From: an uncultured bacterium
GTDB taxonomy: Bacteria; Auribacterota; JACPWU01
Length of the DNA stretch: 32,000 bases
Reading direction: 5' to 3'
NCBI GenBank assembly: GCA_964640155.1
Contig: CAZXEQ010000003.1
Span: 325,498 to 357,497 of the forward strand
Within the stretch, counting starts at the first letter, position 1; each line of letters opens with the position of its first letter. This document shows positions 1-32,000 of the stretch, one piece after another. Below the pieces are notes generated by a model that was given only the letters and a program-made list of their open reading frames with translations, made no database searches and was not told where the DNA came from. The translations under genes were made by a program, and so were the position numbers.

Positions 1-600
1 GGAGAAATCATTCGAACGACAAAAGGAAGTCCAGGTTATCTTCATGTCGCAATGCGCCTTTTTGTTTCTCAGGGCTGGATGACAAGAAAAGGTGAGGAGG
101 GTACGGATAATCTGACCTATACCTTGACAGAGGACGGAACTTATATTTTGTCACTTCTGGATTATTATGGGCCTGTGGCTGAGTTTATTGATCAAGCGGT
201 TGGAATAGATGATTATTTGTTCGGGAAATCACGTGCCCCTCCTGCAGATGGACAAAAAAAATCTTATGCGCAGCTGATAGAACTCTCTAAAAATCAATGG
301 AATTTGCCTCCCGAAACAGATTCTCGAAAGAAAATGCTTCGCGAACGTGTGATTCAACAGTTAAACGGAATGCTTTTAGGTCCCACCATGGTTGCTTTAG
401 GAATGCGTGGCGTTTTTGATCAATTTAATCCAGAAACACATTCAGTCACAATAAATCAAATTCAAGGGAATGCGAAACATCTTAAAGAGGCTTTTACTCT
501 TTTAGAACAACAAGGATGGTTAACTCGAAACGGAGATGTTTTCACGCTTACTCATGATGGACGATCGGCTGCAGTTTTAGCATCAGCTTATGGTGTGACT
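1..600 (+). other. Two winged-helix-like units preceding the methyltransferase (ORF-A)
   Basis: The pattern is duplicated: QGWMTRKGEEGTDNLTYTLTEDGTYILSLLDYYG (~67-170) and QQGWLTRNGDVFTLTHDGRSAAVLASAYG (~508-595). It resembles the wHTH dimerisation modules found N-terminal to some SAM-dependent methyltransferases. The call rests on pattern only. Confidence 0.3.
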
Positions 601-3600
601 ACTTCTTATCTACCTCTTTTCTCAAAATTGAAAGAACTTTTAAAAGGTCAAAGTAGAGAAGCGCTTTTTCCTCGTGATAAAAATAACAATGAAACCCATG
701 TCAATCGACCCATGAATGTTTGGGCAAGCGGAGGCGCACATATCGCCTATTTTAAAGAAGCTGATAAAATGATCATTGAAATTTTTAATCGCCCTCTTGA
801 AGAACAGCCTCGTGGTATTGCAGATATGGGATGTGGGGATGGAGCTTTCCTAATTCACTTGCATGAAATTGTGATGAGGACCAAACGAGGAGAGAAGATA
901 AAAGAAACTCTTACGAAAATCTTAGAATTAGAAAGAGAACCTGCTCTTATTAAAGATGGAGGGGCAAAACATCAAGAATATTTATTGGCAAAAGCAGAGT
1001 ATGAAAAATATAAATTAGTTATTGTGGGTGCGGATTTTAATAAGGAGCCCAGAATAATTACTCAAGGGAATTTGGAAAAAGCTGGCATTAAAGATGCAAA
1101 AATTATTTTTGGCAATATTAATGATCCTAAGAAATATGCAGAAGATTTGAGGGCATTGGGACTTGATCCTAAAAGTTTGTTACATGTTAGATCCATGCTT
1201 GATCATAATCGACCCTATGTAACTCCTAAAAATACAGATCATATTCGCGCGGATCGTAAAGCTGATTCGGGTTCTTATGTGAACGACGGGCAGGTTATTC
1301 CCAATAACCAGTTACAGCAAAATTTAGTAGAACATTTAGAGGGCTGGCAAGAACATTGCGTTGGAGATGCAGGGCTGCTTGTGATTGAGCTTCATACCAT
1401 TCCTCCGGAATTGGCTGCGACAAAAATTGGAGATACGCTTGCTACGCCTTATGATGCACATCATGGATTTTCTGATCAGTATATTGCTGAAATTCCCACT
1501 TTTGTAGGAGCGGCAACAGAGGCTGGTCTTGAACTTGTTGAACAGAAGGCCTTTCCAACCACAACTCCTGAAGCTGCAACAGTCAGTATTAATTATTTTA
1601 GAGCGAGTGCAAAAAAGAAGGTTCAAGTTTCTTGGGCAAGATCGTTTGGTAAAGTCTATGCAGTTCATGATGGTCCTGATGGGATTTATCAAGCTTTAAG
1701 ATCTGAAATTACAAAGAAAGATCCACAATTTAATTTTGATTTATTAGAGAAGGCGTATCGATTTGGTGCTGAAAAATATAGGGACATTCGACATGATGGA
1801 AGACCCTACATTGTTCATCCACTTGAAATAGCTCTTTACTTGGTTCGTGTTCTTGGGATTGTGGATCAAGATGCCATTTTAGCTGCGATCTTGCATGATT
1901 TAGTTGAAGATGAAAATGTGCTTCTCAATGAAATCAAAGAAATGTTTGGTGAAAATGTTAGAGCGCTTGTAGACGATCTTTCAGAAGATTCTTCATATCT
2001 TGAAGAGCAAGATAAAGTTTATAAAGCTCAAAATGGTCAAGAGTTAACAGGGAAATTGGCCATGAAAATAGAACATATTGAGCGAGTCGATAAAAAATCC
2101 GGGAAATTATGCATTATCATTAAAATTGTGAATCGTTTGCATAATCTTTTGAGTAATGAATATCCTGTACGCAAAGCTAATTACGGAATGAATCTTTTGG
2201 AAATTCAAAGATGGAGAGTTTTCTTAGATCATCATGTTTCTGATATACCACCTCCTTTGATGGAAGATATTCGTTATTTCTTGGGAAGAAATAAAAAATC
2301 TCCAGATCTGACGCCTGAGGGAGCAGAGATTACAGTAACACATGACGAGCGAAATGCGCCTTTGGGGAAAAGAATTAAAGACAGTGAAGTAACGGAGCTC
2401 TCTATTGATGAGGATGGAAGTCTCAAAGCTGCTTTAGTGATTCATGACTCAAATAAGTCTGAAAGTGAAAGGATAAGAGACTCTCGTAAGTGGAAAGTCG
2501 AAGACGTAAAAAAAGCCGGGACAAAACTTCTTTCAGCAAGAAATAAGCTTATGCAAACTCTTGAAGCACGTTTAGCGAATCCTGAAAGCAGCTTAGCTAA
2601 AACTTACCAATATTTGATTGCAGCAGGAAAAATCGAAAACCAAGAGGCATTTAAAAATCTTTTGCTTGAAAAAGCTAAGCAAATGTCTCTTTTGGTTGTT
2701 GGGGATGAACAAGATTTGTTAAGTGCAGTCATTCATCAAGATGGACCTTATATGCATTGTCGTAGGGGTGTATCAGGCCGACCTCCAGCTCTATGGATGG
2801 GGTATATCACTTTAAAGAGAATGTCTGAAGAAATGTTAACAAGAGCTCTTTTAGATGAAGCTTTGCATGTTGCTTTCCCGGAAGAAGAACATCGAGATAA
2901 AAAAGGAAACGGGACTTTATTACATGATCAAGAATTGTACGAACATTGTGATCAAATTTTAAGATTTGCAAATATTGATTATATTTATCAGAAAATGTAT
3001 CAAGCGCAGCAGGGTATTATCGGGAATCTCGAGATTTTGAGAATGGATATAGATACAATTTCAGAAGAAGATATATTAGCTTTAAAGAAGATTGCCGATG
3101 AACATCCTTCCGATAGAATTTCTTTAGATAGCAGAGAAGAAATAGAACGATGCATAGGAATTTCTAGAAGATTTTTTGATGAGGCAAGAAGAATTGTTCA
3201 AAAATTGCCTTCTTATTTAGAAGATGATGTTCAGGAAATAGCTGAGGAAATCAGAGATGCTATCAGAATTTCTTCTGAGGAGATGAATAAAAATCTTGAT
3301 CTTGCTTATCGTCAATGGTTAGAACATCGATTTTTTGAAAATCCTGGAGAATCTCAACCTATTACACCCCCCGCTGCATTTTGCCAGTTTGATGCTGCTC
3401 CCAATTCTCTTGATGCAATCATGACAGAGATTCGTAAGGCTTATGGGAAAAACCGATTTGATGAGGTTCTCAGGCTTGGGTCAAGTTTAGCAGATGCCAT
3501 TCAAAAGGGACTTGCTATTCCTGATGATGTTCATGTGATGATTGGTAAGGGTTTCTTGGATAGGGCAAGAAGAATGAAAACTCAAGGTAAAATAGAAAAT

Positions 3601-6600
3601 GCTATTCGAGATTTTGATAGGGCCATAGAAAGTTTTGTAACGATGCGCGATAAAGGAGCGGTTAAGGTAGGGGAAGCTTCTGTGGAAAAACCAGTGCTCA
3701 TTGAAGAAGTAAGTAGAGAAATTGTTGTTTATGCAGAAGGTTATGTTGAAAAGGAAAAAGAAAATAGCAGAGAAATTCCTTTAGAAGTTCATTTTGCATT
3801 GGGTCGCGCTTATTTATGGTCTGCTATATGTGAAAAATCCGAAGGCAATATTGCAAAGGCCATGCAGCACTGTGCTCGTGCAATGGATTTTTTGACACAT
3901 TATGCAGCAGCCACTCAAACACCCGTAGTAAGGGGCGCAGCATTGTTAGGGGCACGAAAAGCTCCCACTCAAGGATTTAATGATAATGCAATGCTTTATT
4001 TATCTCAAGCGATGATAGAAAATGGAATAATTCAAATGTTTGCAGGATCTTATGATGCTGCACGTCAAATTTTTCAGCAGACACTGACGTCAAATACAAG
4101 GTTAGGCGAGAAAAAAGCAGAATTACAAAAATTTGTGCAGATATGTAAAGATTTTATTTCCGTTGATAAAGAAATAGTTCAGTTTTCAGGAAGCAAGGAT
4201 GCTGATGCAAGCTCTCTTTTGGGTAAATTAGCAGATTTAGAATCTAGAACTCGTAATAATGAAGATTTGCCATGTGCAGCAGCACAAATTTTTCTTTATC
4301 GATGGATGATTTATTGGAAATTGAAAGATGCTTCTCAAGCCGAGACAAATTTTCAAAAAGCTTTGGAGTCTCGTGATGATCGCTTTTTAATTGCATTTAG
4401 GAGTTTAATCAATGCAATGAGTAAGGCAAAAGTCCTTTGGAATAGAGATTTTTTACAAGCAATTGCTGCAAAGAAAGGACAGCCCTTTTTAAGACGCTTC
4501 TTAAGAGAAATAGTGAAGGATTATTATAGAAGTTTGGATTTGAAAGAATTTCGTGAAGCTGTCATGGAAGTGCTAGGTTTTAAAAGTTTTCGTGAATATG
4601 TTGAATGGCTACTCCAAGAAGAACAAGAAAGAGCTGTAGTAGGGGTTGCGCCAAAAAAAGCAGACGTAGGCTCTCCTATTAATCATCCAGGACTTGTTGC
4701 CCCTTTAATAGAAGCTATACAGGTCTTGCCTAGCGATGATGAGAGAAAAGTATTGGCAGCTAGGCCGGATATTTCTGCTACTCCTGTCCTTCAAGCAGCT
4801 TTAAGAGGGGAGATTCGTCCGATAGCAGATGTTATTAGAATTTCTTTGGAATTAAGGGATGAGTTGGAAAAAATTCAAAAGATTGATGTAGAAGTAGGTG
4901 ATCAAATTGAAATAAGGCAAAAGTGCATTGACATTGCGAAGAAATTTAAAGATGTATGGCTTTTCACGGAAAGTGACTTGGTAAGTGCTTTTTGGGATAA
5001 GTTCTTTACGGTTTTTTCTGGAGAAATGAATCCTGATATAGAGGAAGCACTTAAAATAGGACTTGCCTGGATAGAGAGACATTCTCATAAGTCTCATGAG
5101 CATCAACGTAGCTATATGTATTATCAATGTGGGCAAATCTATTATATGACGAATCTTCGTGCTGAAGCTACGGCATGCTTTCAGAAAGTAATTGAGCAAA
5201 GCTCGTCCGCTGAGTTAAAAATAAGGTCTTATTTTTCCCTAGGTTCATTGCTTTACTTAGAAGTTCGAGATTTAGAGGATGGGGCTGAAAAGACTTCAAA
5301 ATTAAAGCAAGCCAAGGACCTTGTTGCTCGCACATTAACGCAGGAAGCACTCAAGATTGGCGCGATAGATGCTTCTGTTGGTCATATGATGCTTTCTTAT
5401 ATTTGTGCTGAGCTTTGTGAGTATAAGGAGGCTTATGAGCATTTGATGAATGCAAAAACCTATCCTGGAAATTTTCTTTATGCTAAGCGTAAGTTTCTAA
5501 AAAGTTTTGGAGAAAGGTTTGAGAGTTTGACTTCCGGAGAAGATTTAAAAGTTTATAAAGATTTTTTAGTTTTTGCATGCAAACAAGAAAATCAGGAATT
5601 AAGAGATCAGCTTATTCGATTCAGAAGCGTTAAAAATCGAGCGTGGGTGAGAGCCGTGATGGAAGTTTTGAGTAATAAGGGGATTGCATTAAAGCAAAGA
5701 GAAGCAGCTATTGCCTTTTTGCGAGGGATGGATTTAGAGACGGAAAGTGCTGGTTTGATTGGAATTCTTCGAGAGCAAGCGGGTTTTGCGCTGAAACAAC
5801 AGCCTCATTTTTTGTGGGAGGGATTGGAGCTTTTAAGAACTTGTCCGACGCCTGAAGCAAAAGCATTTATTCAAGAAATTCTCGACAATGGCAATTATGC
5901 GAAGGCTGCAGGATATCGCGTGGAAAAAATAAATACGATTGCTAAAGCAAGAGATCAATATGAGAGTTTGCCGGATGTTTTTGAGGTGTCTGATGAGCGA
6001 GCCAAAACATCAAAATATTGTTTAACTCGAAAAGAGTGGAGTCAAATGCTTCTAGATTATTGGCCTTCTGATTCAGAGTGGGATGAATATGTTTTGGAAA
6101 GAGAGAGCTCTAAACTTTCTGATAAGTTTGAGCGTCTTAGCGTTCATGAAATACGTAAACAAATTGAAAAAGCTCGTGAAGAAGGTCTTGCTTATGATGC
6201 AATCATTGGACAATTAGAAGCATTAAATGTTTCAAGAATTAATGTGAATGAAGAGCTTAAGAATTCTCAAATTCGACTTGCAAGAGCTCAGAAACTCATG
6301 GATGAGGGGAATTTTTCAGAAGCAGCTGTAATGCTCTATGAAATTTTAACAGGTCGTTCAAGAGTTCGAGTCGTAGGACTGGAAATGATCATTGCTCATG
6401 AGAGGAATGGAGAAGACAAAGACGTTTTTGTTGTTGTATTAAAAGCTTGGGAATTACTTGAAAGAGCAAACTATTTTATGGAGACAAGGCCTGGGGATTC
6501 TATGCCAACTCTTGAATATGCAAAAGCATTAATTGAAAAATGGAAAGATAAAGATGAAGAACTTCGAACAAAAGATCCTGTTGATATTATGGAGGTTGTT

Positions 6601-9600
6601 AGGGCTTTGTATTTCTTGGAGAGACCACAAGATGCGCTAAGAGTTTTGGAATTAATTCCACCCGTTTTTTTTGATAACTATGGCTATTTTGCTCTTTGGC
6701 GCCTGAGATTAATGTTTAAGACTGACGATGATCGTTTTTTGGGTGAATATGAACGCGTGAAAGAAATGACAGATCCAAAGGCAAAAAATCTATTAGGTAA
6801 ATTTTGTAGAGAAAGAGGGTTGTTTAGCGAGAGCATGGAGGCTTTTCAGGATGCATATACCGGTGCAGATTTTAAACTGACAAATACAAATGAAACCAGA
6901 CCGGGGGCCTTTATAGATGCTGTCCAGGCAGCACAAGTTCCTATTCGTGAAGTTTTTGAGGATGCATTTCTTTCATGTTTTGACATGATGCTAGGATCAA
7001 GCTTACGAAATAAGGGGGCAGATTTTGTTCGTGTTCACCTTCATGAGAATGCATTTGCCGATATGATTTTAATGTCAGCAGAAATGCTTTATGAAGCGGG
7101 CTGTTATTTGGAAGCCTTAAACTTATTAAATCAGCGCTTAAATCAAATAAAAGAAAAAAAACATCTTATTGAATATCATCAATGTCGAGGAAAAATTCTT
7201 GCTGCTTTGAATCGCGATGATGAAGCTTTAAAAGCGTATGAAGAAGCAGTTAAAATTGATGCGAGTAAATTTGAACATTGGAGAGATTTGATAGGAATTT
7301 ATTATGAGAAGAAAGATCGTTCAAATACTATCCGTTGTATTAAGAGGGCGATGAGTGTAGGTGCGTCTGCTGAGACAAGTTATTGTGTGGAAGATATATT
7401 AAAACGTGTGTTGGGTGGTGAAGATGATTCCAAGCTCTGGTTAGCGGATCTTTTGAGCGATCATTCAATTGCAAGTCCAGTAGAAGGCATTGTTTTTGGT
7501 GGTGAAGGTGAAGAAAGAAATGTTCAATTTACGGCTCTTGAAGCGCAAGTAGAAAAAGTTTTTGGTGCAAAAATAAATTTTGTTTTTTCTGAAAATGATA
7601 TTAAAACAAAAAACATCAGTGATGAAATCTTTAATAAGATAAAGACCGCTACAAAAACCAAGAGTCCTTATCTTGAAGAAGTTTTAGGTGAAGGAATGTT
7701 TAATGCAATGGTGCAAGAAGCCATGCGAGCAGATTGCCTAGGAGAAATTTTAAATCTTTTATTTTCTGAAGCAGCTTCAAATATTACTGTTTCAAAAGGG
7801 AAAGGAGTGGCAAAGGCAGGTCGTAGGAATGAAACCCTCAAAGTTGATGGACCCATCATAAATGCAAAATTAATTAACATGGGAGTTCAAGTGATTCAGA
7901 GACTTAAAATTCAAGGCGATACATCTCTTCTAGAGAAAATTGCTAAAGGCCCCTGGGTTGCTGAGACGCCAGAATTTCAGAAAGCACTTAAAGGTGAAGT
8001 TGTTAGAGTTTCTACTGCAGCACTCACACCCGATGCTCAAGGCCCACCTTCTCCAGGAAAAGATCCTGATGCTACCGCAAGCGAAGTTTCTGGAGATGAA
8101 GATGCTGCCATCCTAGCTGCTTTGAAAGAATGTATCCAAGCTTATAGTTCTAATCAGACGCTGTTAGCTTTTCAAAAAGCCCTTGAACTTGCTCCCCGGT
8201 TTAAAAATTTATCAAATAATCCTACGAAAAATCCAAAAGACTTAGAGACCTTTGCAGGAGAAGCAGCAGTGTTGATTGATATTCTGTCTAAGTATGGAGA
8301 TATTCGTTTTGATGCCTCTTTGGAGGAAGGATTAAAGGCTGTTTTGGATTGGACTGTGCGTGCAGGTCCTGCTTTTAAAATTCTTCGAGTTCTTGCGGTA
8401 CATTATCGTGGAAAACTTTATTTGAAGGCACAACAGTTTGCAAAAAGTCGTGCGTTTTTTGCAACTGCTTTGGCTTTGGATCCATCTGAAGTAAAGAATG
8501 TTTTGCCTGACATTGCTGAGGCGTACTTTCAGGAGATGCGAATGTCTAGTGACGTAAATCAAAGGAGAAAACTTGCCCAAGAAGCAATCCCTGTTATTGA
8601 AAATGATTCTTCATGCAACTCTCTTATTGCTTTGGGTTGGTTTTATGCTGAGGTTGGGAGTTATGACAAAGTTTTTGGTGTCATAAAGAAGTTGAATGCT
8701 CAAAGGGCAGTTTTGGCCAAAGGAGGCAAGGACCAGGAAAAAGTTGATGTCGATTTGATTTTTAGAAGCATGATGGCGCGATGTTTTGAAACTTTGCGTG
8801 AAAAAGATATTGAAACGCAGGTGAGATTTATTCAAGTTCTCATAAGTAATCAGTTAGAGTCTGCCTTCGCAGAAACTTTAGAAAGAGGTAAGGAGCAAGG
8901 GCCTTTATGGACACAGGCTTTGATTATTGTGTTAAATCAGGAGATGTCTAGTACTGAAAAAGATCGATTAATTCAACTTTTAAAGGGAGCTGACTTTCGA
9001 GGAGCTGAAGAGCAGTGGCTAGAGATTTTGAGGCAAAAAGCAGATTTATCTGATGCTAAGAAAAAAGAAGCTTTTTTTAAATTTGCTATCCCTGTTTCGG
9101 CGCGTTGTTTTTCTCTTGAAGTAAGAGACTTTTTACAAACATTAAAGCCAGGGTTTTCTTCATCAAAAGATACTACGTTGGCTCAAGCCATCGATCAGGC
9201 TGTTGCATCAATTGAAGGAAATCAGGCTATTGAAACAAAAATCTCTGAAGGAACCAGTTATTTAACCCTCAAAGAATGGCAAGCTTCTTTAAGAAGAGAA
9301 TTGCCTTTGGCTGGAGAATGGGATGAATGGATGTTAGAAGTTGAAACTGCTAAATTTCTTGAAGAATTCCCCTGGATGAAGGCAAGAAAAATTCGAGATG
9401 AACTGGTGAAAGCGCGTCAGTCAAAATTAGATATTGAAGCTGTGCGGTTCAATCTTAAAACTTTAGAAGAAGAGATACAAAGACAGTTTTTCAAGGATAA
9501 AAATTTAAGTCAACTCGAGTCCATTGAGCAGGAAATTCATAAATTGGTTGAGAATGGTCAATGGGATGAGGCTTTTGGCTATATTACTCTAGCCAGAGAA

Positions 9601-12600
9601 GGAAATGCAAAAAAGGGATTCCCGGGATATTATCAACTTTGGAGAAATGCATCAGGGGAGGAAAAGGATAAATATCTCAAGAAACTTCAGGAGATCAGAG
9701 ATTTTGCAGAACATTGGTTCTTTTTATGGAGATTCGAAAGTGACTTGAAAGAAGCAGCAAAGGGTCAAAAAGGCTCGGCAATCGATATTGCTTATGAAAG
9801 AATGGTAAAGCCGTATATAGATACTCCCTCCAAATTAGCTTTGAAAGCTCCTGTCGATTTAGGAGAGATTGCAACCTGTTTTTATGTTGTAGGGGCAAAG
9901 CGAAAAGACACTGCTTTGCAGGATAAGGCCAGGGAAATTCTTGAATCCATCAATTTACAAGAAGTTTTAAAGACAGATTCTGTCAATATTCATCGAGTAG
10001 TTTCGGCGTTTAAAAATATATTGGGGTATGAGAGGGCTAAAGCCGTTCTAGATATGATTGATCTGGCGATCATTAAGAAAGACCAGAGATTAAGAGGTCT
10101 TTATCTTTTGGTGTTTAGTCGTTTAAATGCTGAGGATGCTTTTGTAGTAGAAGCTGATTCTTTTGAACGAGATTTTCCAGATCATGCGCCTCATTATCTA
10201 GGATTAACCTATGAAGCACGTGAAAATCAGGAAAAAAGTCTCGCTTACTATGATCGAGCTTTTCAAGAAGCCCAAATTCATGGTTGGAGTGAAAAATATC
10301 TTAGAGAACACAGCCTCTGGTTGCGACCCGCTGGGATGGCGAGTGTAGAATATAGAATTAGAAGGCTTCGAGGGCTTGTAACTGATAGCGAATATCATTG
10401 GGTGGAATTGATTGATGTGCTCTCATCAAGTGGTCGCTATTTGGAAAGTATGAGACTTGCAAAAGAAAAAATGAGAAGTGTTTCACCAAAAAATCAAATA
10501 GAGCTTCAATGTCATATTGGAGCTTGCTATGAAAACATGGAACGAAGAGAAGAAGCTTTTACTGCTTATGAAGCTGCGCGACTAAAATCTACTGCGAATG
10601 TTGAGACATGGGATAGAATCCAAGTTTTTTGTGTGAGCAGTTTTCTTGTAAGACATCCAAAAGCAGGTGAATGGATAAAACATTTTTATAATGAAGCTAT
10701 TAAAACAAGAAATACAGGGATTATAGATTCCTTTAAAAATTATTTTAGAAAACATGGTCATCCCCTCGATGTAAATGCTTCAGGAGATATTACGATCAGG
10801 TTTTTAGCGCTTGAAAAAATAGTGAAAGAAGCATGTGATTTGGAAATCACTATTCAGATGCCCTTAAATATAGCGTGTTCCTCTGTGGTAGATCGAGAAA
10901 TTGGCAAAATCGTAATCCCTCATTTAAAAGAAAAGTTTCCAAATCTTGTGGGGTTTATAGGAGATGAAATTATTTCTGGTCCTCACTTTGATTTGGAGGG
11001 TAAATCTCCGGATTTTCTTCTAGGGCTTGAAGAAAAATTATCTAAGAAAGAGACAAATATTGCCGATGCTATTGAAGCAGGGACTTCCATTATAAGTTCT
11101 GGTTTAGTGAAAGATGTTAAAGCATTGGTGAATTCACTTTGGACAAGGGTTCAGGCAGGAGATGCTCAAGCAAAGATTTGGTTAGGGGCTTTGGCTCAAG
11201 TTGAGGGAGTAACTGGAGATTTTGGGGATATTAGTATTGAACTTGAAGATGGAAATAAAATAATACGATTCAAGAAAATGGAAGAAGATCTCCAGAGAGA
11301 TCATGGAGTACATGTTGATTTGGTAGTGAGAGTTTCTGAGTTTAAGGATTATGACCCGAGAGCCGTTTTAGATGAAATTGAAGGAAGAATGAGTGCGGAT
11401 ATTGAGGCAAGATTAGAAAGCTCTTCAAATGTGACTCGAGCATTATTTGAGAAATGGAAAAGTGCTCTTGTTTCAGGTTCATTAAAAGATGCTGGGGTTT
11501 TAATCAGGCCACTTTGGAAAAGAGTGAAGGCGGCAGATGCTCAAGCCAGACAATGGCTAGCAGATCTCGTGGGGCTTGAACAAGGCAGAGGAGATTTTGG
11601 AGAAATAAGGATTGAGCTAGGCGCTAAAGGGAATGAGCTTTGTTTAAATCAAGTCGGAGCTGACTTGATTGAAGAAAAGCTTTTGAGAGATGACTCAAGA
11701 GATGAAATGCTTGCAGGGCTTCAAAATGCGTTAACATTTGGACTGGTGTCGAATCCTGCAATTTTAATTAATTCTCTGTGGGCGAAGGTCGTGAGTGGGA
11801 ACCCTCAGGCTGCGTTAGCGCTTGGAAGAGTTGTTGAGACTGTTGCGGATGTAGACGGTGAATATGGCACGTTGAGGATTGAGACACGTGAGGGTGGTGT
11901 TAAAGTGTTACATCGTCGGGATTTCGAAGATCAATTTGAACAGGCTTTTGGTGAGAGAATGCCTTTTGTTCTTACTCCTGCCGAATTGAAAGAATCTGGT
12001 TTGAAAGATGTGCGTGCTGAAATAACTGCCTATGTTCAGCGTAAACTTTTAGAAAAAAGTGACGGTGAGACGCGAACAAAAGTACTTTCAGGCTTAAAAA
12101 CTTTTTTTGATTTAGGGTTAGTTTCTACAGAAACTTTAATTGAATCTTTTTGGACTGGCGCAGTCAGTGGGGATGCTCAAGCAAGAGAAAGTTTATGTGA
12201 TGTGGCTCAAATGGATGGAGTTGTAGGACCATTTGGGAAGTTAAACATTCAAGCAAGAGATGATGGTAGGAAAACTTTTCGATTTATCGAAATTGAGGAG
12301 AATTTTGAGTCAACTTTTTCATCAAAGAGCAATCTTTCGGTTTCAATAGAAGAATTTAAAAAAACAGGTTTTGATACAGTTGAGGAAAGAATAGCGGGAT
12401 GTGTTTTAGAAATATTCAAAACTGCCGGGCAAAAGGATAAAGATGTTATTGCTGGGATTGATCTTGCGTTAGAAGCGGGGTTGATTAGAAATGCTGGTGC
12501 AATAATGCGCACTCTTTTAGTAGAAGTTAAAATGGGGAATGATCGAGCTAGAAAATGGTTATGCGATGTGGCAAGACTTGAGCGAGCTAAAGGAGATTTT

Positions 12601-15600
12601 GGAGAAATAAGTATCGAATCGGATACCCGAGGAAAAGTTTTACGTTTTAAGGAAATGCAAAGACTTTTTAGAAATGCATTTGAAGAAGGAATATCATTTG
12701 TTGAACCTATTGATCAATTTGAAAAAGAAGGTTTGGCATTAATACAAAAGAGAATTGTAGGTTTTGTAGAAAAGAAAATGGCTCAAAGTGATGAAATGCG
12801 AGGGAAAATGCTCAAAGGATTTGAAGCTGCAGTTGCTTCTGGTTTAGTAAGCGATGCGGGAATTTTAGTGAGATCTCTTTATGAAAGAGTGCTTAAAGGT
12901 GAAAGTGAAGGGAGAGTTTTTCTGACAGAACTTGCGGCTCGTGAAAAAGTTTTAGGTGATTTTGGTGATATTGCAATTGAAAAAGTGGATGAACAAATTG
13001 TGATACGTTTTCGGATGACATTGGGTGAATCTACAGAGTTTACTGCTTCTCCAGAAGAGTTTGGTCAATTGAACTTGCCGAAAGCTAAAGAAGCCATTAC
13101 CCAAAGTTTTGAATCAGATTTAATGAACGAAGACAGGGGAGTTCGAGAGGCTGCGATAACTCGTTTTAAACAAACACCCATTTTTTCACTATTAGCGGAA
13201 AATCTCGTAAGATCTATTTGGGGGAAAGTGCTGCAAGGAAATGCGAGCGCAAGGCGAGCTTTATGCGTTTTAGCAAGAGATGCTGGTGTCAGAGGAGATT
13301 TTGAGGTTATTGAAATTTTAGATTCTCCTGCTTTAGGTGTAAAATTACGATTAAAAGATATGGAGAGTAAATTTAATGAGATTGTTGGAAAATCAGTTAC
13401 TTTTATGATGGATGTTGTTGAGTTTGAAGGAACTGGTTTGTCTCGCATTCAAGCGCAGATTATTTCAGGACTTGAAAGGGGATTGTTATCCGATGATGAG
13501 CCAATTCGAGCAGCAGCTTTTGCTGGATTCAAGAAAGCTTTAGAATTTGGGCTTGTAACCGATGCAAGTATTTTGGCTAAACCTCTGTGGGAAAAGGCTG
13601 CAAAGGGCGATGCTTCGGCAAGAAACGATTTGTGTGATTTCATTGCAGCGGGCCATTTAAAAGGAAACTTTGAAGGGTTTAGTGTTGTAGAAGATGGGAG
13701 AGCAGTAAGGCTAAGTGCAGCAGAAAAAGAATTAGGAGAGGCATTTCAAGGAATTAATCTTACGATTTCAATCGAAGAATTTAGAGCTTCAGGTTTAGCT
13801 GGAATACAATCAAAAATAATTCAGTATGTCATCGAAAAATTGGAAAGTGTTGATGAAGCTGAGCAAGATAAAGGTATTGTTGCGCTTCAAAAAGCTTTAC
13901 AGACACATATATTGCCTGATGCACGAGCTATCGTGAGTCAGCTTTGGAAAAAAGTCGAAGCAGAAAATGTGCAGGCCAGAACAGCTTTGGTCAAACTTCT
14001 TTTAAATGTTGAAGGAGATTTTGAAGAAGTTGGGATTGAAACTGTTGGAGAGAAAAAAGTTTTGCACTTGAAGGAAGAGGAGAGAAAGTATCAGGAAATA
14101 TTTGGGGAAAAAATAAATATACTTGTTCCTGTTTCCAGATTTTTAAGTATTGGTTTAGATTCGACTGCTCAATCAATCATCCAATATACTGAGACGCGTT
14201 TATCTGTTGCGGATGAAAATGCTCGTACACGGATATTTGCTAAATTTAAAAATGCTATAGATCAGGGTTTGATTAAGAATGCGAATGATCTGGTTGGTGC
14301 TCTTTTAGATAGAGTCATTAGTGGTAAAGAAGAAGATAAATGGGCTAGAGTTGCTTTAAGCAGATTCTTATCTCTTAATTGGGCTGAAACTGAGTTTGAT
14401 GGAATTGTTATTGAAAAGAGATCAAAAGGTAAAGGAAGTGATGAAGAAAAAGTAATTCATTTTTTAAGGATTGAAAATGAATCAAAGAAAAATTTTTCTT
14501 TAGGTAAAAAGGATATTCTTTCCATTACTTTAGTGGAGCTAGAAACACAAGGGAGTGAAGGAATTCTTAATAAAATAATGGGTTTTATTAAGAGTGAACG
14601 AAAATATCTTCTTGAGATTTTAGATGAAGTAAAGTTAAGAGAATTATTGCGTGAAGGATTAGAAAATAGAGATATGGAAGATCTGGTTGTAGACTTATCT
14701 TATTTTGCAGCAAAGAAATTAAGAGAAACAAGGATTACATATCTTCCTTTAAATTCTATTCGTGAATTATTGAAGGATCAAAAATGCGAGAGAAAAGATC
14801 TTACACAAGTTTTAGAAATGTTGCAGTCTTTGAGGCGCTTGGCTGGCGGAGGAAGTGTAAGTTTTAAAAAAGTAGAGGAAGAAACGCAAGATGTATTAGT
14901 TATTACTCTTCCTGCTTCAGTTCCAAGAGAAACAATGAAGCAATATTTAGACAGAGAAGATGTAAAGGGCCGTTTAGATCCTGTCATCTTAGGTTATGCA
15001 AATGAATGTGAATCTAAGAAGGCGCCTATTTATAGAGTTATTTTAAGTGATGGTTCTCTAGTAGATAGTGGGATTGTGGATCGTGGAACTTTAAAAAGTA
15101 AACAGATTTTAAAACGACTTCCTCAGAGAGGATATGCAAGTTTGGAGAAAATAGAAGGAGAGAAGGGAGGTGTATTAGTATTTAATCTTTCAGATCTGAT
15201 TTCAAAAGAAACTATAAAGCAATATTTTGAAGAACAAAGGGTAAAAAGTTATTTAAAATTTATTATTGAGAGATATGTGGATGAATATGGGTTTGAGAAA
15301 GCGCCTTCTTATCAAGTCCTTTTAAGTGATGGTTCTCAAATAGATGATGAGGGTGTTAAAGAAGAAATAGAAGTTATCATTAAAGCTATTATTAATGAAA
15401 GAAAAAGGATGGCTGAGGAAGCTGCGGCTTCTAAAAATGGTGAAACAGCAATTGATGGTAATGGATTGAATGGTGGCGCTGGAACCAATGGTGCTAATGG
15501 CGCAAATGATGGTATTACTCATGTAGAAGCGGGGAGTGTTGGTGTAGAAGTGGTTATTGGAACTGAGACTGGAGCATCTGAAACAGAAACGGGTGATGGA

Positions 15601-17786: not shown

Positions 17787-17876
17787 ATGAAGAAATATTT
17801 TTGCAAATTCATAACCATTCTTTTATCTCTTTTTCTCTTTTTTGATTTTACGACAAGAGAAGCACAACTTTTTGCT
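17787..17876 (+). other. Sec-type signal peptide of ORF-B
   Basis: MKKYFCKFITILLSLFLFFDFTTREAQLFA|SD has a basic n-region, a 12-residue hydrophobic core, and small residues at -1 and -3-like positions. There is no lipobox. Confidence 0.7.
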
Positions 17877-20800
17877 TCAGATTCTTCAGATCGATTGAAA
17901 GCAGGAGAGATTTTAAAAGAGTCGATTGACTTTAAAATTTCTGACTTTCAAAAGGCACCTCCAGTAGCTATTCAAGGTATTCTCACGTCTTTTCTAAAGT
18001 ATTTCTTTTTGCAATCTTATGAATATTCTATTTCCTTGCTCACGCACCGGCATATCTCGTTTCAAGGGATTCCTGTGCCTTCACTTTTTGATGAGATGAT
18101 GGAGACTTTATGGGAATTAATGAGAGAGCAGGAGTGGAAAGGTTTAGCTCGAAGATATATGAGAGAGCTCCGCTTGCGGTTAGTTGAGGAACATCAAGGG
18201 GATGTTAAAAAGGTGCAAAAGGAGCTTTTGAGAAATATAGATATTTGGGAGGGGAATAAATTAAAACTCTCTCAGAAGAAAAAGGGCTTTGCTGTTCTTT
18301 TTGAAAGTATAGATGATGAAGAGGAAGAGAATTCAGGGCTCTCACAAAAAGAAAAGGATTTCTTTGCGCTTCTAAGGCAAGAGGCCTTAGGACAAAAAGG
18401 GCCAGCAGCTCAGTTACTTCCAGAGCAACTAGAGAAAGTGATACATAGAAGTATGGCTCATGCGAAGACCGTTATGAAAATATTTGAAAGATTTCTACAA
18501 AATCAAGTTGCACAGGTGAGGCCCATTTATGAAAGAGCAAAAGTAACTCATGACGAAGAAATAAAAGCTGGAGAGTTAATATTTGAGATTTTAGATTTTA
18601 GGCCTGATTTTAAGAGAGATCCTCCCGATTTTTCAGGTCAGAAATTTGCCGAAGAACTTTTTGAGAAAAAGATTAAAAATTTTGGAGGCCGTAAATATTT
18701 ATTTGATCAGATTTTGTTTGAGCTGCGTAATTTAGATGATATGGATTCTAGGGCGTCATTAGTATTGATGCATGTTTTGGCCTGTTTTTTTAAAGAGGAT
18801 TATTTATCGAAACAAGGGGGAGTGACTTTATCCAGGGAACAATTTGAAAGACTTTGGAGGATTTATCGTTCAATCGACTATGATTGTGCGGGAGTCGCCA
18901 TGGGTTGCATTGCGCAAGTGATTTATGATCCAAGAATTAAAGTTGTAGGATTTACTCAAGATCAAATCCATTCACGGGCAAAAAAAGATTTTGAAATATT
19001 TTTAAAACGATTCATACACAATCCCAATCCGCGCACTTACAATCTATCTATTTATTGGTCACAGTATTTTTTGACTCAGGATTCTGAGTGGCTTGATGAA
19101 GTGATTGAAAAGATGAATTCTTTTGGTCGTCGGTCAGAAAAATTTAATCTAATTTTACGGGGATTATTGTCTAAGGTTTGTCAGGATGGAAAATTACGGG
19201 AAAATATTAATGAGTTTGCGAATAAATTTATTCAACCTTTAGATATTGCTGTATCCACCAATACTCCTGAAGATGCATGGAAAGCTATTTGGGGCACCAC
19301 CGATCAACCCCATCTTGAAAATGCGAAAAAATTTCTAGAAACAGTTACTTCTTTAAGAGAGCTTTATCCTTATCAATTGACTTCGTCTGATGCTACACCT
19401 CCACTTCAATTTGCTATTAAAAATGGTATTTATTTCCCAATTGGAGGAGGGCTTTATGTGACCCCGATAACTCAATCTTTTAGGCGACATACTGTTTTTA
19501 AATTAACCAATAGTGGACAGGTTACTTTTGCTTTTGAAGTATTGATTCCTGGTGAAAATACTGATCGACGTCTGATTGCAACTGAACAAAGGTGGAAGGT
19601 TTCATCGGAGTTGCTCGAAAGCTTTCCTCTGCATAATTATTGTCCTACTCCTCTCGCAATGATGGATTTGCCAAAGGGTTCATACTCTCTTTATGGCCAG
19701 GAAATTGAATTTAGTTCTAAAACTCCTTTGTCGGTCATGGGATTTCAATATGGAGAACAAGAAGATGGGAAGCGCCTAGACTTTATAACAAGACCCATAT
19801 TGGATGAAATTGCTAAAGAATCAGGTTGGGATTCAGATGCTTTGTCTTTTGAAGTTGCCAAACAAGTAACCGAACTTACCGCAGCAACTCATGCTCTGGG
19901 GTATGTGGGGCATAATGGTAAATCTTCTGATCATCATACTGGAAACTTTAGATTGATTTTGACAGGAGATAGAGCTAGGCCCATCAAAATAAAGTTGGTT
20001 GGGGATTTTGAGGCTTTCACCAAAGTTAGTTATGAAGATCAGATTAATAAAATGGGGAATGATGTTAATAATATTGTTCCCAGACTTAGCCTAATTTTGG
20101 ATATGGATGCAGAAAAACTTAAAAAGATGTTTGAAGAAGCTAGAGATTTACCCCATATACGTGAAGTTTCTGATAGAAAAAGAAAAGAATCGCTCAAAAA
20201 TGATTTTCGAGCTCTTCTAGTAATAAATCCAGATAACAAGGATCATTTAGAAGAATTATTAGCTTCTGTAAATGTCCGTGATTGTGAGCAATCTGTTCGA
20301 GAACAAAATAATGTAATAACTCTTGGTTTTTTCTTTGAGGATGAATTTTTAGATAAGCATGGAGGTCTTGTTTTATCTCAAGCCCAGTATGATCGGTTAT
20401 GGAAGATTTATAATGAAGCGGCAGTAGCTCCAGAATATGCGGCGATGATATTGGGATATATCTCTAAAGTTTTAAATGATGATAGGATCTCAATTGAAGG
20501 TCAGCCTGATAAGAAACAAGTTCGAAAAACATCTGCACAAAAGATAGTTTCTGCTTTAGAGATTACATCTCCTACAGATAATCCTAAACAGGCTTGGAAA
20601 GCTATTTTTGGAACAACTGATCAGCCTCATGTTCAAAACACTCAAAAGTTTATAGAAATGGCGACACTCTTAAGAAAAATTTTCCCTTATGAATTATCAA
20701 AAGAGGACCCTCGTTCTCCTTTAAAATATGCATTAGAAGAGGGGATTTATTTCCCTATAGGAGGTGGACTTTTTATGACACCTGTCACCGAATCTTTCAG

Positions 20801-31025: not shown

Positions 31026-32000
31026 GTGAGAACTTCTTTTAGTGGCATTTATAGCAGAATACTTATTTCTCTTCTTTCCTTCACTGTAGGATTTGACAGT
31101 AGTCTTTTATCACAAGTAACGGCACGCTCCTCAAAACCAGTTTCTCTTCCAGAGAATCTTAAAAACTCCGAAATTTCTTTATCCCTTCAAAACCTTATTT
31201 TACCTGGCATGCAAAATGGCAAAACATTTAAAGGGCATGGCGAGAGTCAATTTATATTGATTCGTGACTTACACTGCCAAGAAGAAGCTCAAATTAAAAT
31301 AGCTCAAGGAATAGAATTACTAAACAAGAAACATGGTGTTAAACAGGCATTGATAGAGGGAGCTGAGGGACTTGTTCGAACAGGGCTTTATAGCAGCTTT
31401 CCTGATGACAAAATACGCCAGCAAGTAGCCAGTGAATTCTTAAAAGAAGGATATTTGAGTGGGGCAGAGTATGCGGCGATTAAAATGGGGAAGAACGCTG
31501 ATTTAACACTTTATGGGGTTGAAGATGCTTCTTTATACATTGAGAACTTTAGGGCTTTCCGAAACACAAGAAAACTTTATCAATCTAAGCTTAAATCTAT
31601 CAAAAAAATAGATGAATGGCTGAGAACCCTTAAGAAAGAAAAATACTCAAAAGAATTACTATCTTTAGATTCGGCATTAGAGAAGATCTGGAATGGAGAA
31701 ATAGATGTAGAGAGTTTGATCAATGGGGTAAAGAGTTTTGAATCTTATCAAGAACTCAAAGCATTAGAAGAATGGGAAAAAGTTTTTAAAGATTCAAAAG
31801 CGATTAATCCAGAGAAGATCCAAACATCATTAAGTTCTTTAATAAACCATCTTCAGAAGCAGCTTGTCCAAGAAGAAATGAAAGAAGTGATTCAATGGAC
31901 TTTAGAATATCGATTCGGCAAGATCAGAATTTCTGAATACCTCAGTCGATTAAAACAAAAAGCAGGTGAAGCAACATTCAATCAAGAATACCCCATTCTT
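31026..32000 (+). CDS. Hypothetical protein with an N-terminal hydrophobic signal/anchor, 3'-truncated by the window edge
   Basis: The frame is open for 325 codons from GTG 31026 to the window end. The frame is also stop-free upstream to at least nt 30960 with no ATG, so the GTG start is provisional. AAGGA at 31007-31011 lies upstream, and a TTGACA-N17-TATATT promoter is at 30961-30989. The N-terminus RTSFSGIYSRILISLLSFTVGF is hydrophobic. This ORF is missing from the supplied track because it has no stop inside the window. Confidence 0.75.
   Translation, partial: MRTSFSGIYSRILISLLSFTVGFDSSLLSQVTARSSKPVSLPENLKNSEISLSLQNLILPGMQNGKTFKGHGESQFILIRDLHCQEEAQIKIAQGIELLNKKHGVKQALIEGAEGLVRTGLYSSFPDDKIRQQVASEFLKEGYLSGAEYAAIKMGKNADLTLYGVEDASLYIENFRAFRNTRKLYQSKLKSIKKIDEWLRTLKKEKYSKELLSLDSALEKIWNGEIDVESLINGVKSFESYQELKALEEWEKVFKDSKAINPEKIQTSLSSLINHLQKQLVQEEMKEVIQWTLEYRFGKIRISEYLSRLKQKAGEATFNQEYPIL

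What the first reader, a model, noticed from the sequence alone, without database searches (positions are those of the whole stretch)
697..2225. SAM-methyltransferase fused to a stand-alone SpoT-type (p)ppGpp-hydrolase-like HD domain inside a giant protein
The HD segment (RPYIVHPLEIA...AAILHDLVEDENV...FGENVRALVDDLSE...VNRLHNLL) is a close motif-level match to the hydrolase half of RelA/SpoT homologues. No synthetase domain follows, so it resembles small alarmone hydrolases (Mesh1-like). Immediately upstream is a class I methyltransferase (IADMGCGDG; VGADFN) preceded by two winged-helix-like units. Housekeeping RSH enzymes are about 700 aa. Embedding the hydrolase in a protein of more than 5,800 aa next to a methyltransferase is unusual. 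Inference: if the protein or a fragment reaches another cell, an alarmone hydrolase could collapse a bacterial target's stringent response. In a eukaryotic host it could act like Mesh1. Alternatively it regulates the producer's own physiology.
Basis: partly seen in the sequence, partly recalled or inferred. Interest (0 to 1): 0.7.

Follow-up and report, generated by a model that had tools for sequence, protein, structure and literature searches.

The report
Methyltransferase plus crippled alarmone-hydrolase-like domain
A 6,580-residue exported giant bacterial protein does carry a methyltransferase next to a RelA/SpoT-type hydrolase-like domain, but that domain belongs to a small unnamed side branch of the family and has lost one of its four metal-binding residues, so calling it a working (p)ppGpp hydrolase is doubtful.

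Summary
Window nt 1-1620 encode an AprA-MT1/SxtA-type SAM methyltransferase module with winged-helix units (Pfam Methyltransf_36, 272 bits). Nt ~1680-2300 encode an RSH-type HD domain (HD_4 43 bits; best PDB sequence match Rel, 6e-14; best fold match MESH1). No synthetase domain follows.

The ORF runs off the window start. The full protein (P0149) has 6,580 aa and begins with a signal peptide.

Three results change the interpretation.
1. The HD domain is neither a long-RSH hydrolase nor a described small alarmone hydrolase. It falls in a monophyletic 10-member clade. Members are 270-aa stand-alone proteins or domains inside proteins of up to 6,580 aa, two of which are named Candidatus Omnitrophota. 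At least five of the nine relatives have a SMODS-associated NUDIX domain directly upstream.
2. Every relative checked keeps the fourth Mn ligand (Asp of 'DRxHN'). This protein alone has Asn (AAT, nt 2131-2133).
3. The clade has Glu where MESH1 has its phosphatase-determining Asp, and long RSH have Lys there.

Best reading: these are two cargo domains of an exported multi-enzyme giant protein, and this HD copy is probably weakened or non-catalytic. It is a new variant of a known kind, of moderate interest.

The parts
1..17679 (+). ORF1: residues 689-6580 of a 6,580-aa protein (P0149). The N-terminal 688 aa lie upstream of the window. They comprise a signal peptide, a ~450-aa shared N-terminal module and the start of the methyltransferase module.
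   Evidence: No stop from nt 1. A 100% identical 6,580-aa protein was found by exhaustive phmmer. A Logan contig carries the same gene still open at its 5' end.
1..84 (+). Tail of the first winged-helix unit (AprA_N, P0149 residues 652-716).
   Evidence: Pfam AprA_N 72 bits on the P0149 N-terminal piece. Alignment to stand-alone homologues shows about 55-60 aa of the module missing from the window.
364..648 (+). Second winged-helix unit (WH_AprA).
   Evidence: Pfam PF23589 71 bits. Aligns to AprA MT1 structure 6b39.
649..1620 (+). Class I SAM methyltransferase catalytic domain of the AprA MT1 / SxtA family. SAM motif I IADMGCGDG is at 817-843, VGADFN at 1024-1041 and HVRSMLDHNRPY at 1183-1218.
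   Evidence: Pfam Methyltransf_36 271.9 bits. PDB 6b39 AprA MT1 219 bits and 7ucl 187 bits. 116 of 138 positions that are >=97% conserved in 119 stand-alone homologues are kept.
1678..2298 (+). RSH-hydrolase-fold HD domain (P0149 residues ~1248-1454), member of a separate 10-member clade.
   Evidence: HD_4 43.2 bits. TIGR00691 67 bits. PDB Rel 5.9e-14. AF2 model with core pLDDT >90 matches only RSH hydrolases, with MESH1 top at TM 0.67-0.69. Clade shown.
1789..1818 (+). Arg1285, Tyr1291 and His1294, equivalent to RelSeq R44, Y50 and H53 (first Mn ligand). All are kept.
   Evidence: Alignments. Column counts.
1894..1911 (+). His1320-Asp1321 (HD, Mn ligands) and Glu1324-Asp1325 (ED diad), all kept. 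The next residue is Glu1326, where all nine other clade members have Thr, as do most other RSH relatives.
1984..1986 (+). Glu1350 in 'DLSE'. This is the position of MESH1 Asp91 (phosphatase determinant). Long RSH have Lys here (GVTK). Glu is invariant in the clade.
   Evidence: Alignment to 3nr1. Invariant E125 in A3. Column counts K 121, D 14, E 12. Role of Asp91 is from PMC11554896.
2131..2133 (+). Codon AAT = Asn1399, replacing the fourth Mn ligand (Asp144 of RelSeq, 'DRLHN').
   Evidence: Asp in 75/75 aligned relatives and 118/118 motif-matched relatives.
7066..7332 (+). TPR repeats. These are the only other profile-detectable feature of ORF1.
   Evidence: Pfam TPR_2/TPR_1. NCBIfam TPR-type hits only.
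17787..30590 (+). ORF2, a 4,267-aa paralogous-style giant protein with a signal-like N-terminus. It shares a ~200-aa module with ORF1.
31026..32000 (+). Start of ORF3. It has a signal-like N-terminus plus the same N-terminal module as ORF1/P0149, P0156 and P0157.
   Evidence: 32% identity to P0149 residues 61-311, E 2e-29.

Best explanation
The region encodes two adjacent enzyme-type domains inside a 6,580-aa multi-enzyme protein that carries a Sec-type signal peptide.

The first domain is a complete AprA-MT1/SxtA-family SAM methyltransferase module. It looks functional, but its substrate is unknown because no ACP or PKS domain is present.

The second is an HD domain with the RelA/SpoT-hydrolase fold. 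It belongs to a small, unnamed clade. Members of this clade occur as 270-aa stand-alone proteins or as cargo in giant exported proteins. These giants resemble those described in Omnitrophota, and the HD domain usually sits directly after a SMODS-associated NUDIX domain.

The clade keeps the full catalytic set: 2H2D Mn site, ED diad, Arg and Tyr. It has Glu at the MESH1 Asp91 position. It is therefore most likely a phosphohydrolase acting on 3'- or 2'-phosphorylated purine nucleotides. The substrate need not be ppGpp.

In this particular protein the fourth Mn ligand is Asn instead of Asp. Two further clade-invariant residues are also changed. This HD copy is therefore most likely weakened or non-catalytic: a decaying or binding-only module.

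Shown: domain identities, fold, clade membership, the substitution, the signal-like N-terminus and the shared N-terminal module.
Inferred: export, action on nucleotides of another cell, and loss of activity.
For: Domain calls: Pfam, NCBIfam, PDB sequence search.

Fold: AF2 model and Foldseek return RSH hydrolases only.

Full-length protein and signal peptide.

Clade:
- Exhaustive phmmer finds closest relatives P0150, P0151, P0152, P0153, P0156, P0157, P0161, P0168 and P0189.
- They share a signature.
- In an NJ tree of 101 HD domains these 10 are monophyletic, and the other nine are the nine nearest neighbours of the window domain.

Sa_NUDIX lies directly upstream of the HD in P0152, P0153, P0157, P0161 and P0156.

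Taxon hints: P0153 and P0161 are named Candidatus Omnitrophota.

Shared N-terminal module: present in P0149, P0156, P0157 and ORF3.

Asn versus Asp. Three clade-invariant positions are changed.

Literature: 2H2D described as invariant, ED diad as second-metal site, MESH1 Asp91 as phosphatase determinant (PMC11554896). Omnitrophota giant proteins combine methyltransferase, NUDIX, HD and glycosyltransferase domains, and 94% carry a TM helix or signal peptide (bioRxiv 10.1101/2023.11.21.568195 and 10.64898/2026.06.07.730766).

Methyltransferase intact: 116/138 conserved positions kept.
Against: - Asn can still ligate a metal through its carbonyl oxygen. In SpoT an Asp-to-Asn change in the ED diad was rescued by millimolar Mn2+ (PMC11554896). 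Residual or altered activity is therefore possible.
- Only one sequence of this protein exists. It cannot be told whether Asn is fixed and selected, a recent mutation, or an assembly or sequencing error (a single G-to-A change).
- The source organism is not identified. The methyltransferase's nearest multi-domain relative is labelled Chlamydiota.
- Export is inferred from an N-terminal sequence read by eye plus a hydropathy scan. No dedicated predictor was used.
- No substrate was tested.
Confidence: 0.55

Rival explanations
1. The HD domain is an active stand-alone (p)ppGpp hydrolase delivered with the giant protein into another cell. There it collapses the stringent response, or acts like Mesh1 in a eukaryotic host.
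For: - RSH-hydrolase family and fold.
- Three of four Mn ligands, the ED diad, Arg and Tyr are kept.
- Signal peptide present.
- RSH-type hydrolases carried by phages and giant viruses show that such domains are used in conflicts between genomes.
- Asn may still bind metal.
Against: - The fourth Mn ligand is lost, against 118/118 relatives.
- Clade-invariant Thr1326 and Asp1286 are also changed.
- The domain's clade is distinct from all characterised ppGpp hydrolases. It has Glu where long RSH have Lys.
- No delivery mechanism is known.
Confidence: 0.2
2. The HD domain, and its clade, is a Mesh1-like monophosphatase rather than a pyrophosphohydrolase. It would act on NADPH, ppGp/pGp-type or other 3'/2'-phosphonucleotides, or on products of the neighbouring NUDIX domain in relatives. 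The Asn variant simply retunes metal preference.
For: - An acidic residue (Glu1350) sits at the MESH1 Asp91 position and is invariant in the clade.
- Asp91 is reported as the phosphatase determinant, and a promiscuous bacterial SAH also has an acidic residue there (PMC11554896).
- The best fold matches are MESH1-NADPH and MESH1-PAPS complexes.
- The clade is tightly coupled to Sa_NUDIX.
Against: - The residue is Glu, not Asp, and nothing has been tested.
- The fold ranking of MESH1 over Rel is marginal.
- This reading does not explain why only this protein has Asn.
Confidence: 0.15
3. The giant protein stays with the producer, either membrane-anchored by an uncleaved N-terminal helix or periplasmic. 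The methyltransferase and HD domains regulate the producer's own physiology.
For: A 2026 preprint reads many Omnitrophota long proteins as inner-membrane-anchored regulatory multi-enzymes with methyltransferase and HD modules. Secretion beyond the inner membrane is not shown here.
Against: - The positively charged N-terminus (MKK) followed by a single hydrophobic segment predicts that the bulk of the protein is outside the cytoplasm. SAM and nucleotides are not expected there (inference).
- PVC-superphylum genomes surveyed in 2011 had no RSH at all (PMC3153485). If that holds for this organism, an own-alarmone role is unlikely.
Confidence: 0.1

Closest known systems
Hydrolase (HD) domain of long RelA/SpoT homologues (Rel of B. 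subtilis 8acu/6yxa, T. thermophilus 6s2t, RelSeq 1vj7, SpoT 7qpr)
   Same: Best sequence matches: 33-38% identity over about 160 aa, E 6e-14 to PDB. Same fold. Keeps Arg44, Tyr50, His53, His77-Asp78, Glu81-Asp82 and Asn148.
   Different: - No synthetase, TGS or ACT domains.
- Asp144 is Asn.
- 'GVTK' Lys is Glu.
- A 12-aa insertion with the clade motif KIEHxxRV precedes the last metal-binding helix.
- The 'ETLxIYAPLAxRLG' segment is replaced by 'E(I/V)xRWxxFL'.
- Embedded in a 6,580-aa exported protein.
Small alarmone hydrolases: metazoan MESH1 (3nr1, 5vxa), bacterial SAHs (6yvc, 7qod, 7qoe, 4yf1), (p)ppApp hydrolase 7smg
   Same: Single-domain-sized RSH hydrolase fold without a synthetase. MESH1 is the top structural match (TM 0.67-0.69 on target). 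An acidic residue sits at the MESH1 Asp91 position.
   Different: - Not stand-alone.
- Forms a separate clade in the NJ tree.
- The fourth Mn ligand is lost.
- The residue at the Asp91 position is Glu, not Asp.
Pseudo-hydrolase domain of E. coli RelA
   Same: Precedent for an RSH HD domain that is retained but catalytically inactive (PMC3153485).
   Different: Here only one ligand is changed, plus two neighbouring conserved residues. The context is unrelated to ribosome-dependent synthetase regulation. This comparison rests on the literature and was not aligned here.
AprA MT1 / SxtA metal-dependent C-methyltransferases and the stand-alone 'AprA-related methyltransferase' family (Pfam AprA_N + WH_AprA + Methyltransf_36)
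   Same: Whole-module homology: 219 bits to 6b39, and 42-45% identity to about 550-aa stand-alone proteins. SAM-binding and other conserved motifs are kept. In Nostoc the stand-alone form sits next to a type I PKS.
   Different: No ACP, KS or other PKS domain in ORF1. A 38-aa insertion relative to AprA. Fused to an HD domain inside a giant protein. In Acidobacteria the family is not PKS-linked either.
Multi-enzyme giant proteins of Candidatus Omnitrophota ('Archaeovorin'-type and 'Module 1' long proteins)
   Same: Signal-peptide-bearing very long proteins that string together methyltransferase, NUDIX, HD, kinase and glycosyltransferase-type domains with TPR/HEAT scaffolds. The HD-clade relatives P0153 and P0161 are Omnitrophota.
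   Different: At 6,580 aa it is far below the >=30,000 aa of the described 'giants'. The taxon of the window is not established. The specific RSH-like HD clade and its pairing with Sa_NUDIX or an AprA-type methyltransferase are not mentioned in the passages read.

Membership tests
RSH-superfamily hydrolase domain (Pfam HD_4) | Profile match above the curated threshold | tested here: met
   HD_4 43.2 bits against cut-off 27.2, covering profile positions 3-83 of 156. TIGR00691 partial hit of 67 bits.
RSH-superfamily hydrolase domain (Pfam HD_4) | All-helical RSH hydrolase fold | tested here: met
   AF2 model (pLDDT 71.6, core >90). The top 47 Foldseek PDB hits are all RSH hydrolases or pseudo-hydrolases. 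TM normalised on target is 0.6-0.73.
RSH-superfamily hydrolase domain (Pfam HD_4) | Invariant 2H2D Mn2+ site (His53, His77, Asp78, Asp144 in RelSeq numbering) | tested here: not met
   His1294, His1320 and Asp1321 are present. Asp144 is replaced by Asn1399. Relatives have Asp in 75/75 and 118/118 cases. Invariance is stated in PMC11554896.
RSH-superfamily hydrolase domain (Pfam HD_4) | ED diad (Glu81-Asp82), Arg44 and the conserved Tyr | tested here: met
   Glu1324-Asp1325, Arg1285 and Tyr1291.
RSH-superfamily hydrolase domain (Pfam HD_4) | Hydrolysis of the 3'-pyrophosphate of (p)ppGpp | not testable with these tools
   Needs an enzyme assay.
Small alarmone hydrolase (SAH / Mesh1 type) | Stand-alone single-domain protein of about 180-200 aa | tested here: not met
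   The domain is residues ~1248-1454 of a 6,580-aa protein. Two clade relatives (P0150, P0151, 270 aa) are stand-alone.
Small alarmone hydrolase (SAH / Mesh1 type) | Groups with a described SAH subgroup in an HD-domain tree | tested here: inconclusive
   The NJ tree of 101 domains puts it in its own 10-member clade, sister to everything else sampled. Named SAH reference sequences were not in the tree.
Small alarmone hydrolase (SAH / Mesh1 type) | MESH-type Asp91 (phosphatase determinant) | tested here: inconclusive
   Glu1350 aligns with Asp91 and is invariant in the clade. It is acidic but not Asp, and its function is untested.
Long RSH (Rel / SpoT / RelA) | HD + SYNTH + TGS + ACT architecture, about 700 aa | tested here: not met
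   No RelA_SpoT, TGS or ACT hit anywhere in ORF1. Long-RSH hits align only over their first ~170 residues.
AprA MT1 / SxtA-type methyltransferase (Methyltransf_36 with AprA_N and WH_AprA) | Full module homology and intact SAM-binding motifs | tested here: met
   272 bits in Pfam. 219 bits to 6b39. 116/138 near-invariant positions are kept, including DMGCGD, RSxLDHNRP and LELHT.
AprA MT1 / SxtA-type methyltransferase (Methyltransf_36 with AprA_N and WH_AprA) | Acts on malonyl-ACP in a PKS loading context | tested here: not met
   No PP-binding, KS or AT domain in ORF1 or ORF2. A PKS neighbour is seen for the Nostoc homologue only.
Omnitrophota multi-enzyme giant proteins | Encoded in an Omnitrophota genome | tested here: inconclusive
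   The source contig is unnamed, and two genome-contig scans did not recover it. HD-clade relatives P0153 and P0161 are Omnitrophota. The methyltransferase relative P0004 is Chlamydiota.
Omnitrophota multi-enzyme giant proteins | Signal peptide or TM segment plus many unrelated enzyme domains on one chain | tested here: met
   Signal-like N-terminus. Methyltransferase, HD and TPR in ORF1. Relatives with the same N-terminal module carry kinase, FHA, methyltransferase, Sa_NUDIX, HD and deaminase domains.

The most novel reading that the evidence does not exclude
Ultra-small, possibly predatory or parasitic bacteria of the Omnitrophota type export giant multi-enzyme effectors. These carry a dedicated cassette that erases nucleotide signals: a SMODS-associated NUDIX domain plus a previously unrecognised RSH-like HD clade. 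The cassette would switch off alarmone-based or cyclic-nucleotide-based stress and defence signalling in the target cell. In this protein the HD copy would have been converted, by Asp-to-Asn at the metal site, into a non-catalytic nucleotide-binding module coupled to an AprA-type C-methyltransferase.
Probability: 0.12. Interest if true: 0.75.

Novelty: new variant of a known kind. Interest (0 to 1): 0.45.

Why it matters
RSH-type hydrolases are known as housekeeping regulators (Rel/SpoT), as small alarmone hydrolases, and as phage-borne counter-defence enzymes.

A separate clade that sits in signal-peptide-bearing giant proteins, usually directly after a SMODS-associated NUDIX domain, would add a fourth setting. 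In that setting nucleotide-signal hydrolases would be cargo of exported multi-enzyme proteins in poorly understood ultra-small bacteria.

This gives a concrete, testable handle on what at least one module of these giant proteins does: assay the 270-aa stand-alone members and the NUDIX-HD pairs.

For this particular window the lesson is cautionary. The domain call is right, but the copy has lost a metal ligand that is otherwise invariant. It should not be annotated as a (p)ppGpp hydrolase without an assay.

Tried and rejected
- Recovering the source genome failed. The first genome-contig scan, with the HD region, found nothing. As a result neither the taxon nor the presence of a canonical RelA/SpoT could be checked.
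- Exact look-ups reached only two Logan contigs, not the 357-kb NCBI contig. P0149 exceeds the 5,000-aa look-up limit.
- SRR8893623 is not mentioned in any held paper.
- Word-indexed homology searches found nothing beyond RSH for P0149 residues ~1240-2090. They found nothing at all for window residues 1801-3800. A 4,992-aa query timed out.
- NCBIfam and PADLOC on ORF1 and NCBIfam on ORF2 gave only TPR-type or sub-threshold hits.
- PDB sequence searches of the ORF1 C-terminus and of an ORF2 repeat gave nothing.
- The AF2 model of the shared N-terminal module has no significant PDB match. There were weak erythromycin-esterase-family hints at probability 0.2. My by-eye guess of a ChaN/Tiki/erythromycin-esterase-like domain is therefore unsupported.
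- The AprA MT1 and SxtA structure papers are not held, so I make no claim about the methyltransferase's metal ligands.
- The genomic context of stand-alone HD protein P0150 was uninformative, consisting mostly of genes without families.
- Rejected: that the ORF is spurious or the HD match is chance. Also rejected: that the domain is a long-RSH remnant with a degraded synthetase, because sequence and fold end at SAH size and the downstream sequence has no RSH similarity.
Full report
OBSERVATION

The window holds two very long plus-strand ORFs and the start of a third. ORF1 has no stop codon from nt 1 to 17679. The ATG at nt 52 is therefore not its start.

Pfam finds these features on ORF1:
- AprA_N and WH_AprA (71 bits).
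- Methyltransf_36, 'AprA MT2-like' (271.9 bits).
- HD_4 (43.2 bits against a cut-off of 27.2, profile positions 3-83 of 156).
- A few TPRs near nt 7066-7332.
- Nothing else. In particular there is no RelA_SpoT synthetase, TGS or ACT domain.

NCBIfam gives a partial spoT_relA match of 67 bits. The quoted motifs are at the stated places.

THE WHOLE PROTEIN

An exhaustive phmmer search with the HD region against 1.84 billion cluster representatives returned the protein itself, P0149. It is 6,580 aa long, with the HD region at residues 1241-1458. Window nt 1 is residue 689.

Its N-terminus is MKKLITLLLCVSLLDIQG|LT..., which has the form of a signal peptide. A hydropathy scan finds no other hydrophobic segment in the protein. 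This is an inference, because no dedicated predictor was available.

The same gene, still open at its 5' end, lies on a Logan contig from SRR8893623. P0149 comes from an unnamed NCBI contig of 357,497 bp.

Outside the methyltransferase, the HD domain and the TPRs, no homologue or family was found.

ORF1 also contains:
- About ten tandem repeats of roughly 110 aa.
- An internal duplication.
- A ~200-aa module that recurs twice in ORF2.

METHYLTRANSFERASE MODULE (P0149 652 to ~1225; window nt 1-1620)

- It matches the AprA MT1 structure 6b39 at 219 bits and 7ucl at 187 bits.
- It is 42-45% identical over its whole length to a very common stand-alone ~550-aa family. Some sources name this family 'AprA-related methyltransferase'.
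- Of 138 positions that are >=97% conserved in 119 stand-alone homologues, 116 are kept. These include DMGCGD, RS(F/M)LDHNRP, LELHT and YDxHGxSDQY. The module looks functional.
- AprA MT1 and SxtA are iron-dependent C-methyltransferases that act on malonyl-ACP (PMC10784701).
- In Nostoc the stand-alone homologue sits next to a type I PKS and a thioesterase. In an acidobacterium it does not.
- ORF1 has no ACP or PKS domain, so the substrate here is unknown.

HD DOMAIN: FAMILY AND FOLD

PDB phmmer gives B. subtilis Rel at 5.9e-14, human MESH1 at 4e-13 and T. thermophilus Rel at 1e-12.

An AlphaFold2 model was built from an alignment with 19 Rel N-terminal regions. Its mean pLDDT is 71.6, and the core blocks exceed 90. 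Foldseek against the PDB matches only RSH hydrolases. MESH1 is first (E 1e-5, TM on target 0.67-0.69), followed by Rel, SpoT and bacterial SAHs. Against viral models it matches phage and giant-virus HD proteins, several of them annotated as RelA/SpoT-type. The family assignment and the SAH-like size are sound.

HD DOMAIN: ITS OWN CLADE

The closest relatives are not Rel proteins. They are P0150 and P0151 (270 aa, 41-43% identity, 140 and 120 bits), P0152 (461 aa), P0153 (1,286 aa), P0156 (5,321 aa), P0157 (3,137 aa), P0161 (2,944 aa), P0168 and P0189.

They share a signature that is absent from Rel/SpoT:
RDDGRxYIxHPLEIA ... LFHDLxEDT ... DLTE ... GRLAxKIEHxxRV ... (I/V)DRxHN ... E(I/V)xRWxxFL

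In a neighbour-joining tree of 101 HD domains (182 columns) these ten form one clade. The nine others are the nine nearest neighbours of the window domain. This is a rough tree without support values.

In P0152, P0153, P0157, P0161 and P0156 the HD domain is immediately preceded by Sa_NUDIX (PF18167, SMODS-associated NUDIX). Other domains in these proteins:
- P0157 also has a protein kinase domain.
- P0161 has an adenosine-deaminase-like domain.
- P0156 has FHA, a peptidase-like domain, a generic class I methyltransferase about 280 aa upstream of its NUDIX-HD pair, and by eye a kinase motif.

P0153 and P0161 are named Candidatus Omnitrophota.

P0149, P0156, P0157 and the window's ORF3 share a ~450-aa N-terminal module after a signal-like sequence. 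The window protein therefore belongs to a family of exported multi-enzyme proteins with variable cargo.

HD DOMAIN: CATALYTIC RESIDUES

By the HMMER alignment to B. subtilis Rel, whose numbering matches RelSeq, and by MAFFT alignments:

| RelSeq position | This protein | Status |
|---|---|---|
| Arg44 | Arg1285 | kept |
| Tyr50 | Tyr1291 | kept |
| His53 | His1294 | kept |
| His77-Asp78 | His1320-Asp1321 | kept |
| Glu81-Asp82 | Glu1324-Asp1325 | kept |
| Asn148 | Asn1403 | kept |
| Asp144 | Asn1399 | changed |

Asp144 is the fourth Mn ligand, in 'DRLHN'. It is replaced by Asn1399 (KIVNRLHN; codon AAT, nt 2131-2133). Among relatives, 75 of 75 that align at this column have Asp, and so do 118 of 118 that show the motif. 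That includes all nine clade members. The only Asn is this protein.

PMC11554896 describes the 2H2D set as invariant in RSH hydrolases and the ED diad as the site of a second metal.

Two more positions that are invariant in the nine other clade members are also changed: D1286H and T1326E. Thr1326 is Thr in 161 of 188 aligned relatives.

A separate detail concerns Glu1350 (DLSE). It aligns with MESH1 Asp91 and is invariant in the clade, whereas long RSH have Lys (GVTK). The column counts are K 121, D 14, E 12. Asp91 is reported to be what makes MESH1 a monophosphatase. This hints that the clade's substrate may not be a 3'-pyrophosphate. That is inference only.

HOW IT MOST LIKELY WORKS

- Shown: two enzyme-type domains sit side by side in a signal-peptide-bearing 6,580-aa protein. 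Its relatives string together nucleotide-directed and other enzymes.
- Inferred: the protein is exported. SAM and phosphorylated nucleotides are not expected outside the cytoplasm. The methyltransferase and HD domains would therefore find substrates only inside another cell. This fits published proposals that Omnitrophota giant proteins act on prey or hosts.
- The clade as a whole looks like an active phosphohydrolase for 3'- or 2'-phosphorylated purine nucleotides that often works together with a NUDIX domain.
- In this protein the lost ligand and the two extra substitutions make a weakened or non-catalytic domain the most likely state. I put this at about 0.6 given the domain identity.
- Asn can still ligate metal, and an Asp-to-Asn change in the ED diad of SpoT was rescued by millimolar Mn2+. 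Activity is therefore not excluded.

A methyltransferase lies near the HD domain in two family members (P0149 and P0156), but the methyltransferases belong to different families. That is weak evidence for functional coupling.

COMPARISON AND NOVELTY

The domain works like, and folds like, an RSH hydrolase. It fails one defining feature (2H2D). It is not a member of the long-RSH class or, as far as tested, of any described SAH class.

Multi-enzyme giant proteins with methyltransferase, NUDIX and HD domains are already described for Omnitrophota in two preprints. What appears new is the specific RSH-like clade, its tight pairing with Sa_NUDIX, and its occurrence next to an AprA-type methyltransferase. 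I rate it a new variant of a known kind.

Atkinson et al. found no RSH at all in the PVC-superphylum genomes available in 2011 (PMC3153485). If the source is Omnitrophota or Chlamydiota, a role in the producer's own stringent response would be unlikely. The taxon and the genome content could not be checked.

LIMITS

- There is one sequence only, with no orthologue above 50% identity, so selection on Asn1399 cannot be judged.
- A sequencing error (G to A) cannot be excluded.
- Signal-peptide and topology calls were made by eye plus a hydropathy scan.
- The tree is distance-based.
- No substrate has been tested.

Noticed in passing
window 17787-30590 (ORF2); modules at ORF2 aa ~452-800, 883-1270, 1470-1845, 3890-4230: ORF2 is a 4,267-aa protein with a signal-like N-terminus and no Pfam or NCBIfam hit. 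It contains four paralogous modules. Their invariant motifs are GIYFxI..TPxTxSFRRHxxFK, AAxHxxGYVG, DxHxGNxR and VxDF. By eye these resemble an atypical kinase catalytic loop plus a DFG-like motif.
   Followed up: partly
window ~15589-16194 (ORF1 window aa 5197-5398), and ORF2 aa 1844-2035 and 3576-3771: A ~200-aa module of unknown function is shared between ORF1 and ORF2 (two copies in ORF2). Identity between the proteins is 36-37% (E 1e-24 to 1e-28). The two ORF2 copies are 61-71% identical to each other.
   Followed up: partly
window ~11026-14580 (ORF1 window aa 3676-4860): About ten tandem repeats of roughly 110 aa (25-40% identity). They coincide with the strongest GC skew in the window. 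There is also an internal duplication, aa 1882-2275 versus 2970-3368.
   Followed up: partly
window 31026-32000 (ORF3, runs off the end): The third gene starts at a GTG with a signal-like N-terminus. It carries the same N-terminal module as the start of ORF1/P0149 (32% identity), P0157 and P0156. An AF2 model of the module (pLDDT 73) has no significant PDB match, so its function is unknown.
   Followed up: partly
window ~24807-25600 (ORF2 aa ~2341-2600): This stretch looks like a GT-A type glycosyltransferase by eye (VVCPVYRE...MMDADT...). No profile hit supports it.
   Followed up: no
near the ORF1 C-terminus, about 400 aa before the stop at 17679: A sequence resembling the minimal nucleotidyltransferase signature (TMGGASLWRSEKDTTLDVDISIL). 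The Chlamydiota methyltransferase relative P0004 also ends in an NTase-like GSx10DIDL. This was seen by eye only; a PDB sequence search of the ORF1 C-terminus found nothing.
   Followed up: partly
window 30639-30845: A 68-aa ORF just after ORF2 is also called, with an identical product, on contigs from two sequencing runs (SRR8893623, SRR31893870). Function unknown.
   Followed up: partly
P0004 (Chlamydiota, partial, 1,192 aa; not in the window): The closest multi-domain relative of the methyltransferase module (45% identity) is also embedded in a larger protein, with different neighbours: a ~570-aa N-terminal extension and an NTase-like C-terminus. The AprA-type methyltransferase has therefore been recruited into large multi-domain proteins more than once.
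   Followed up: partly
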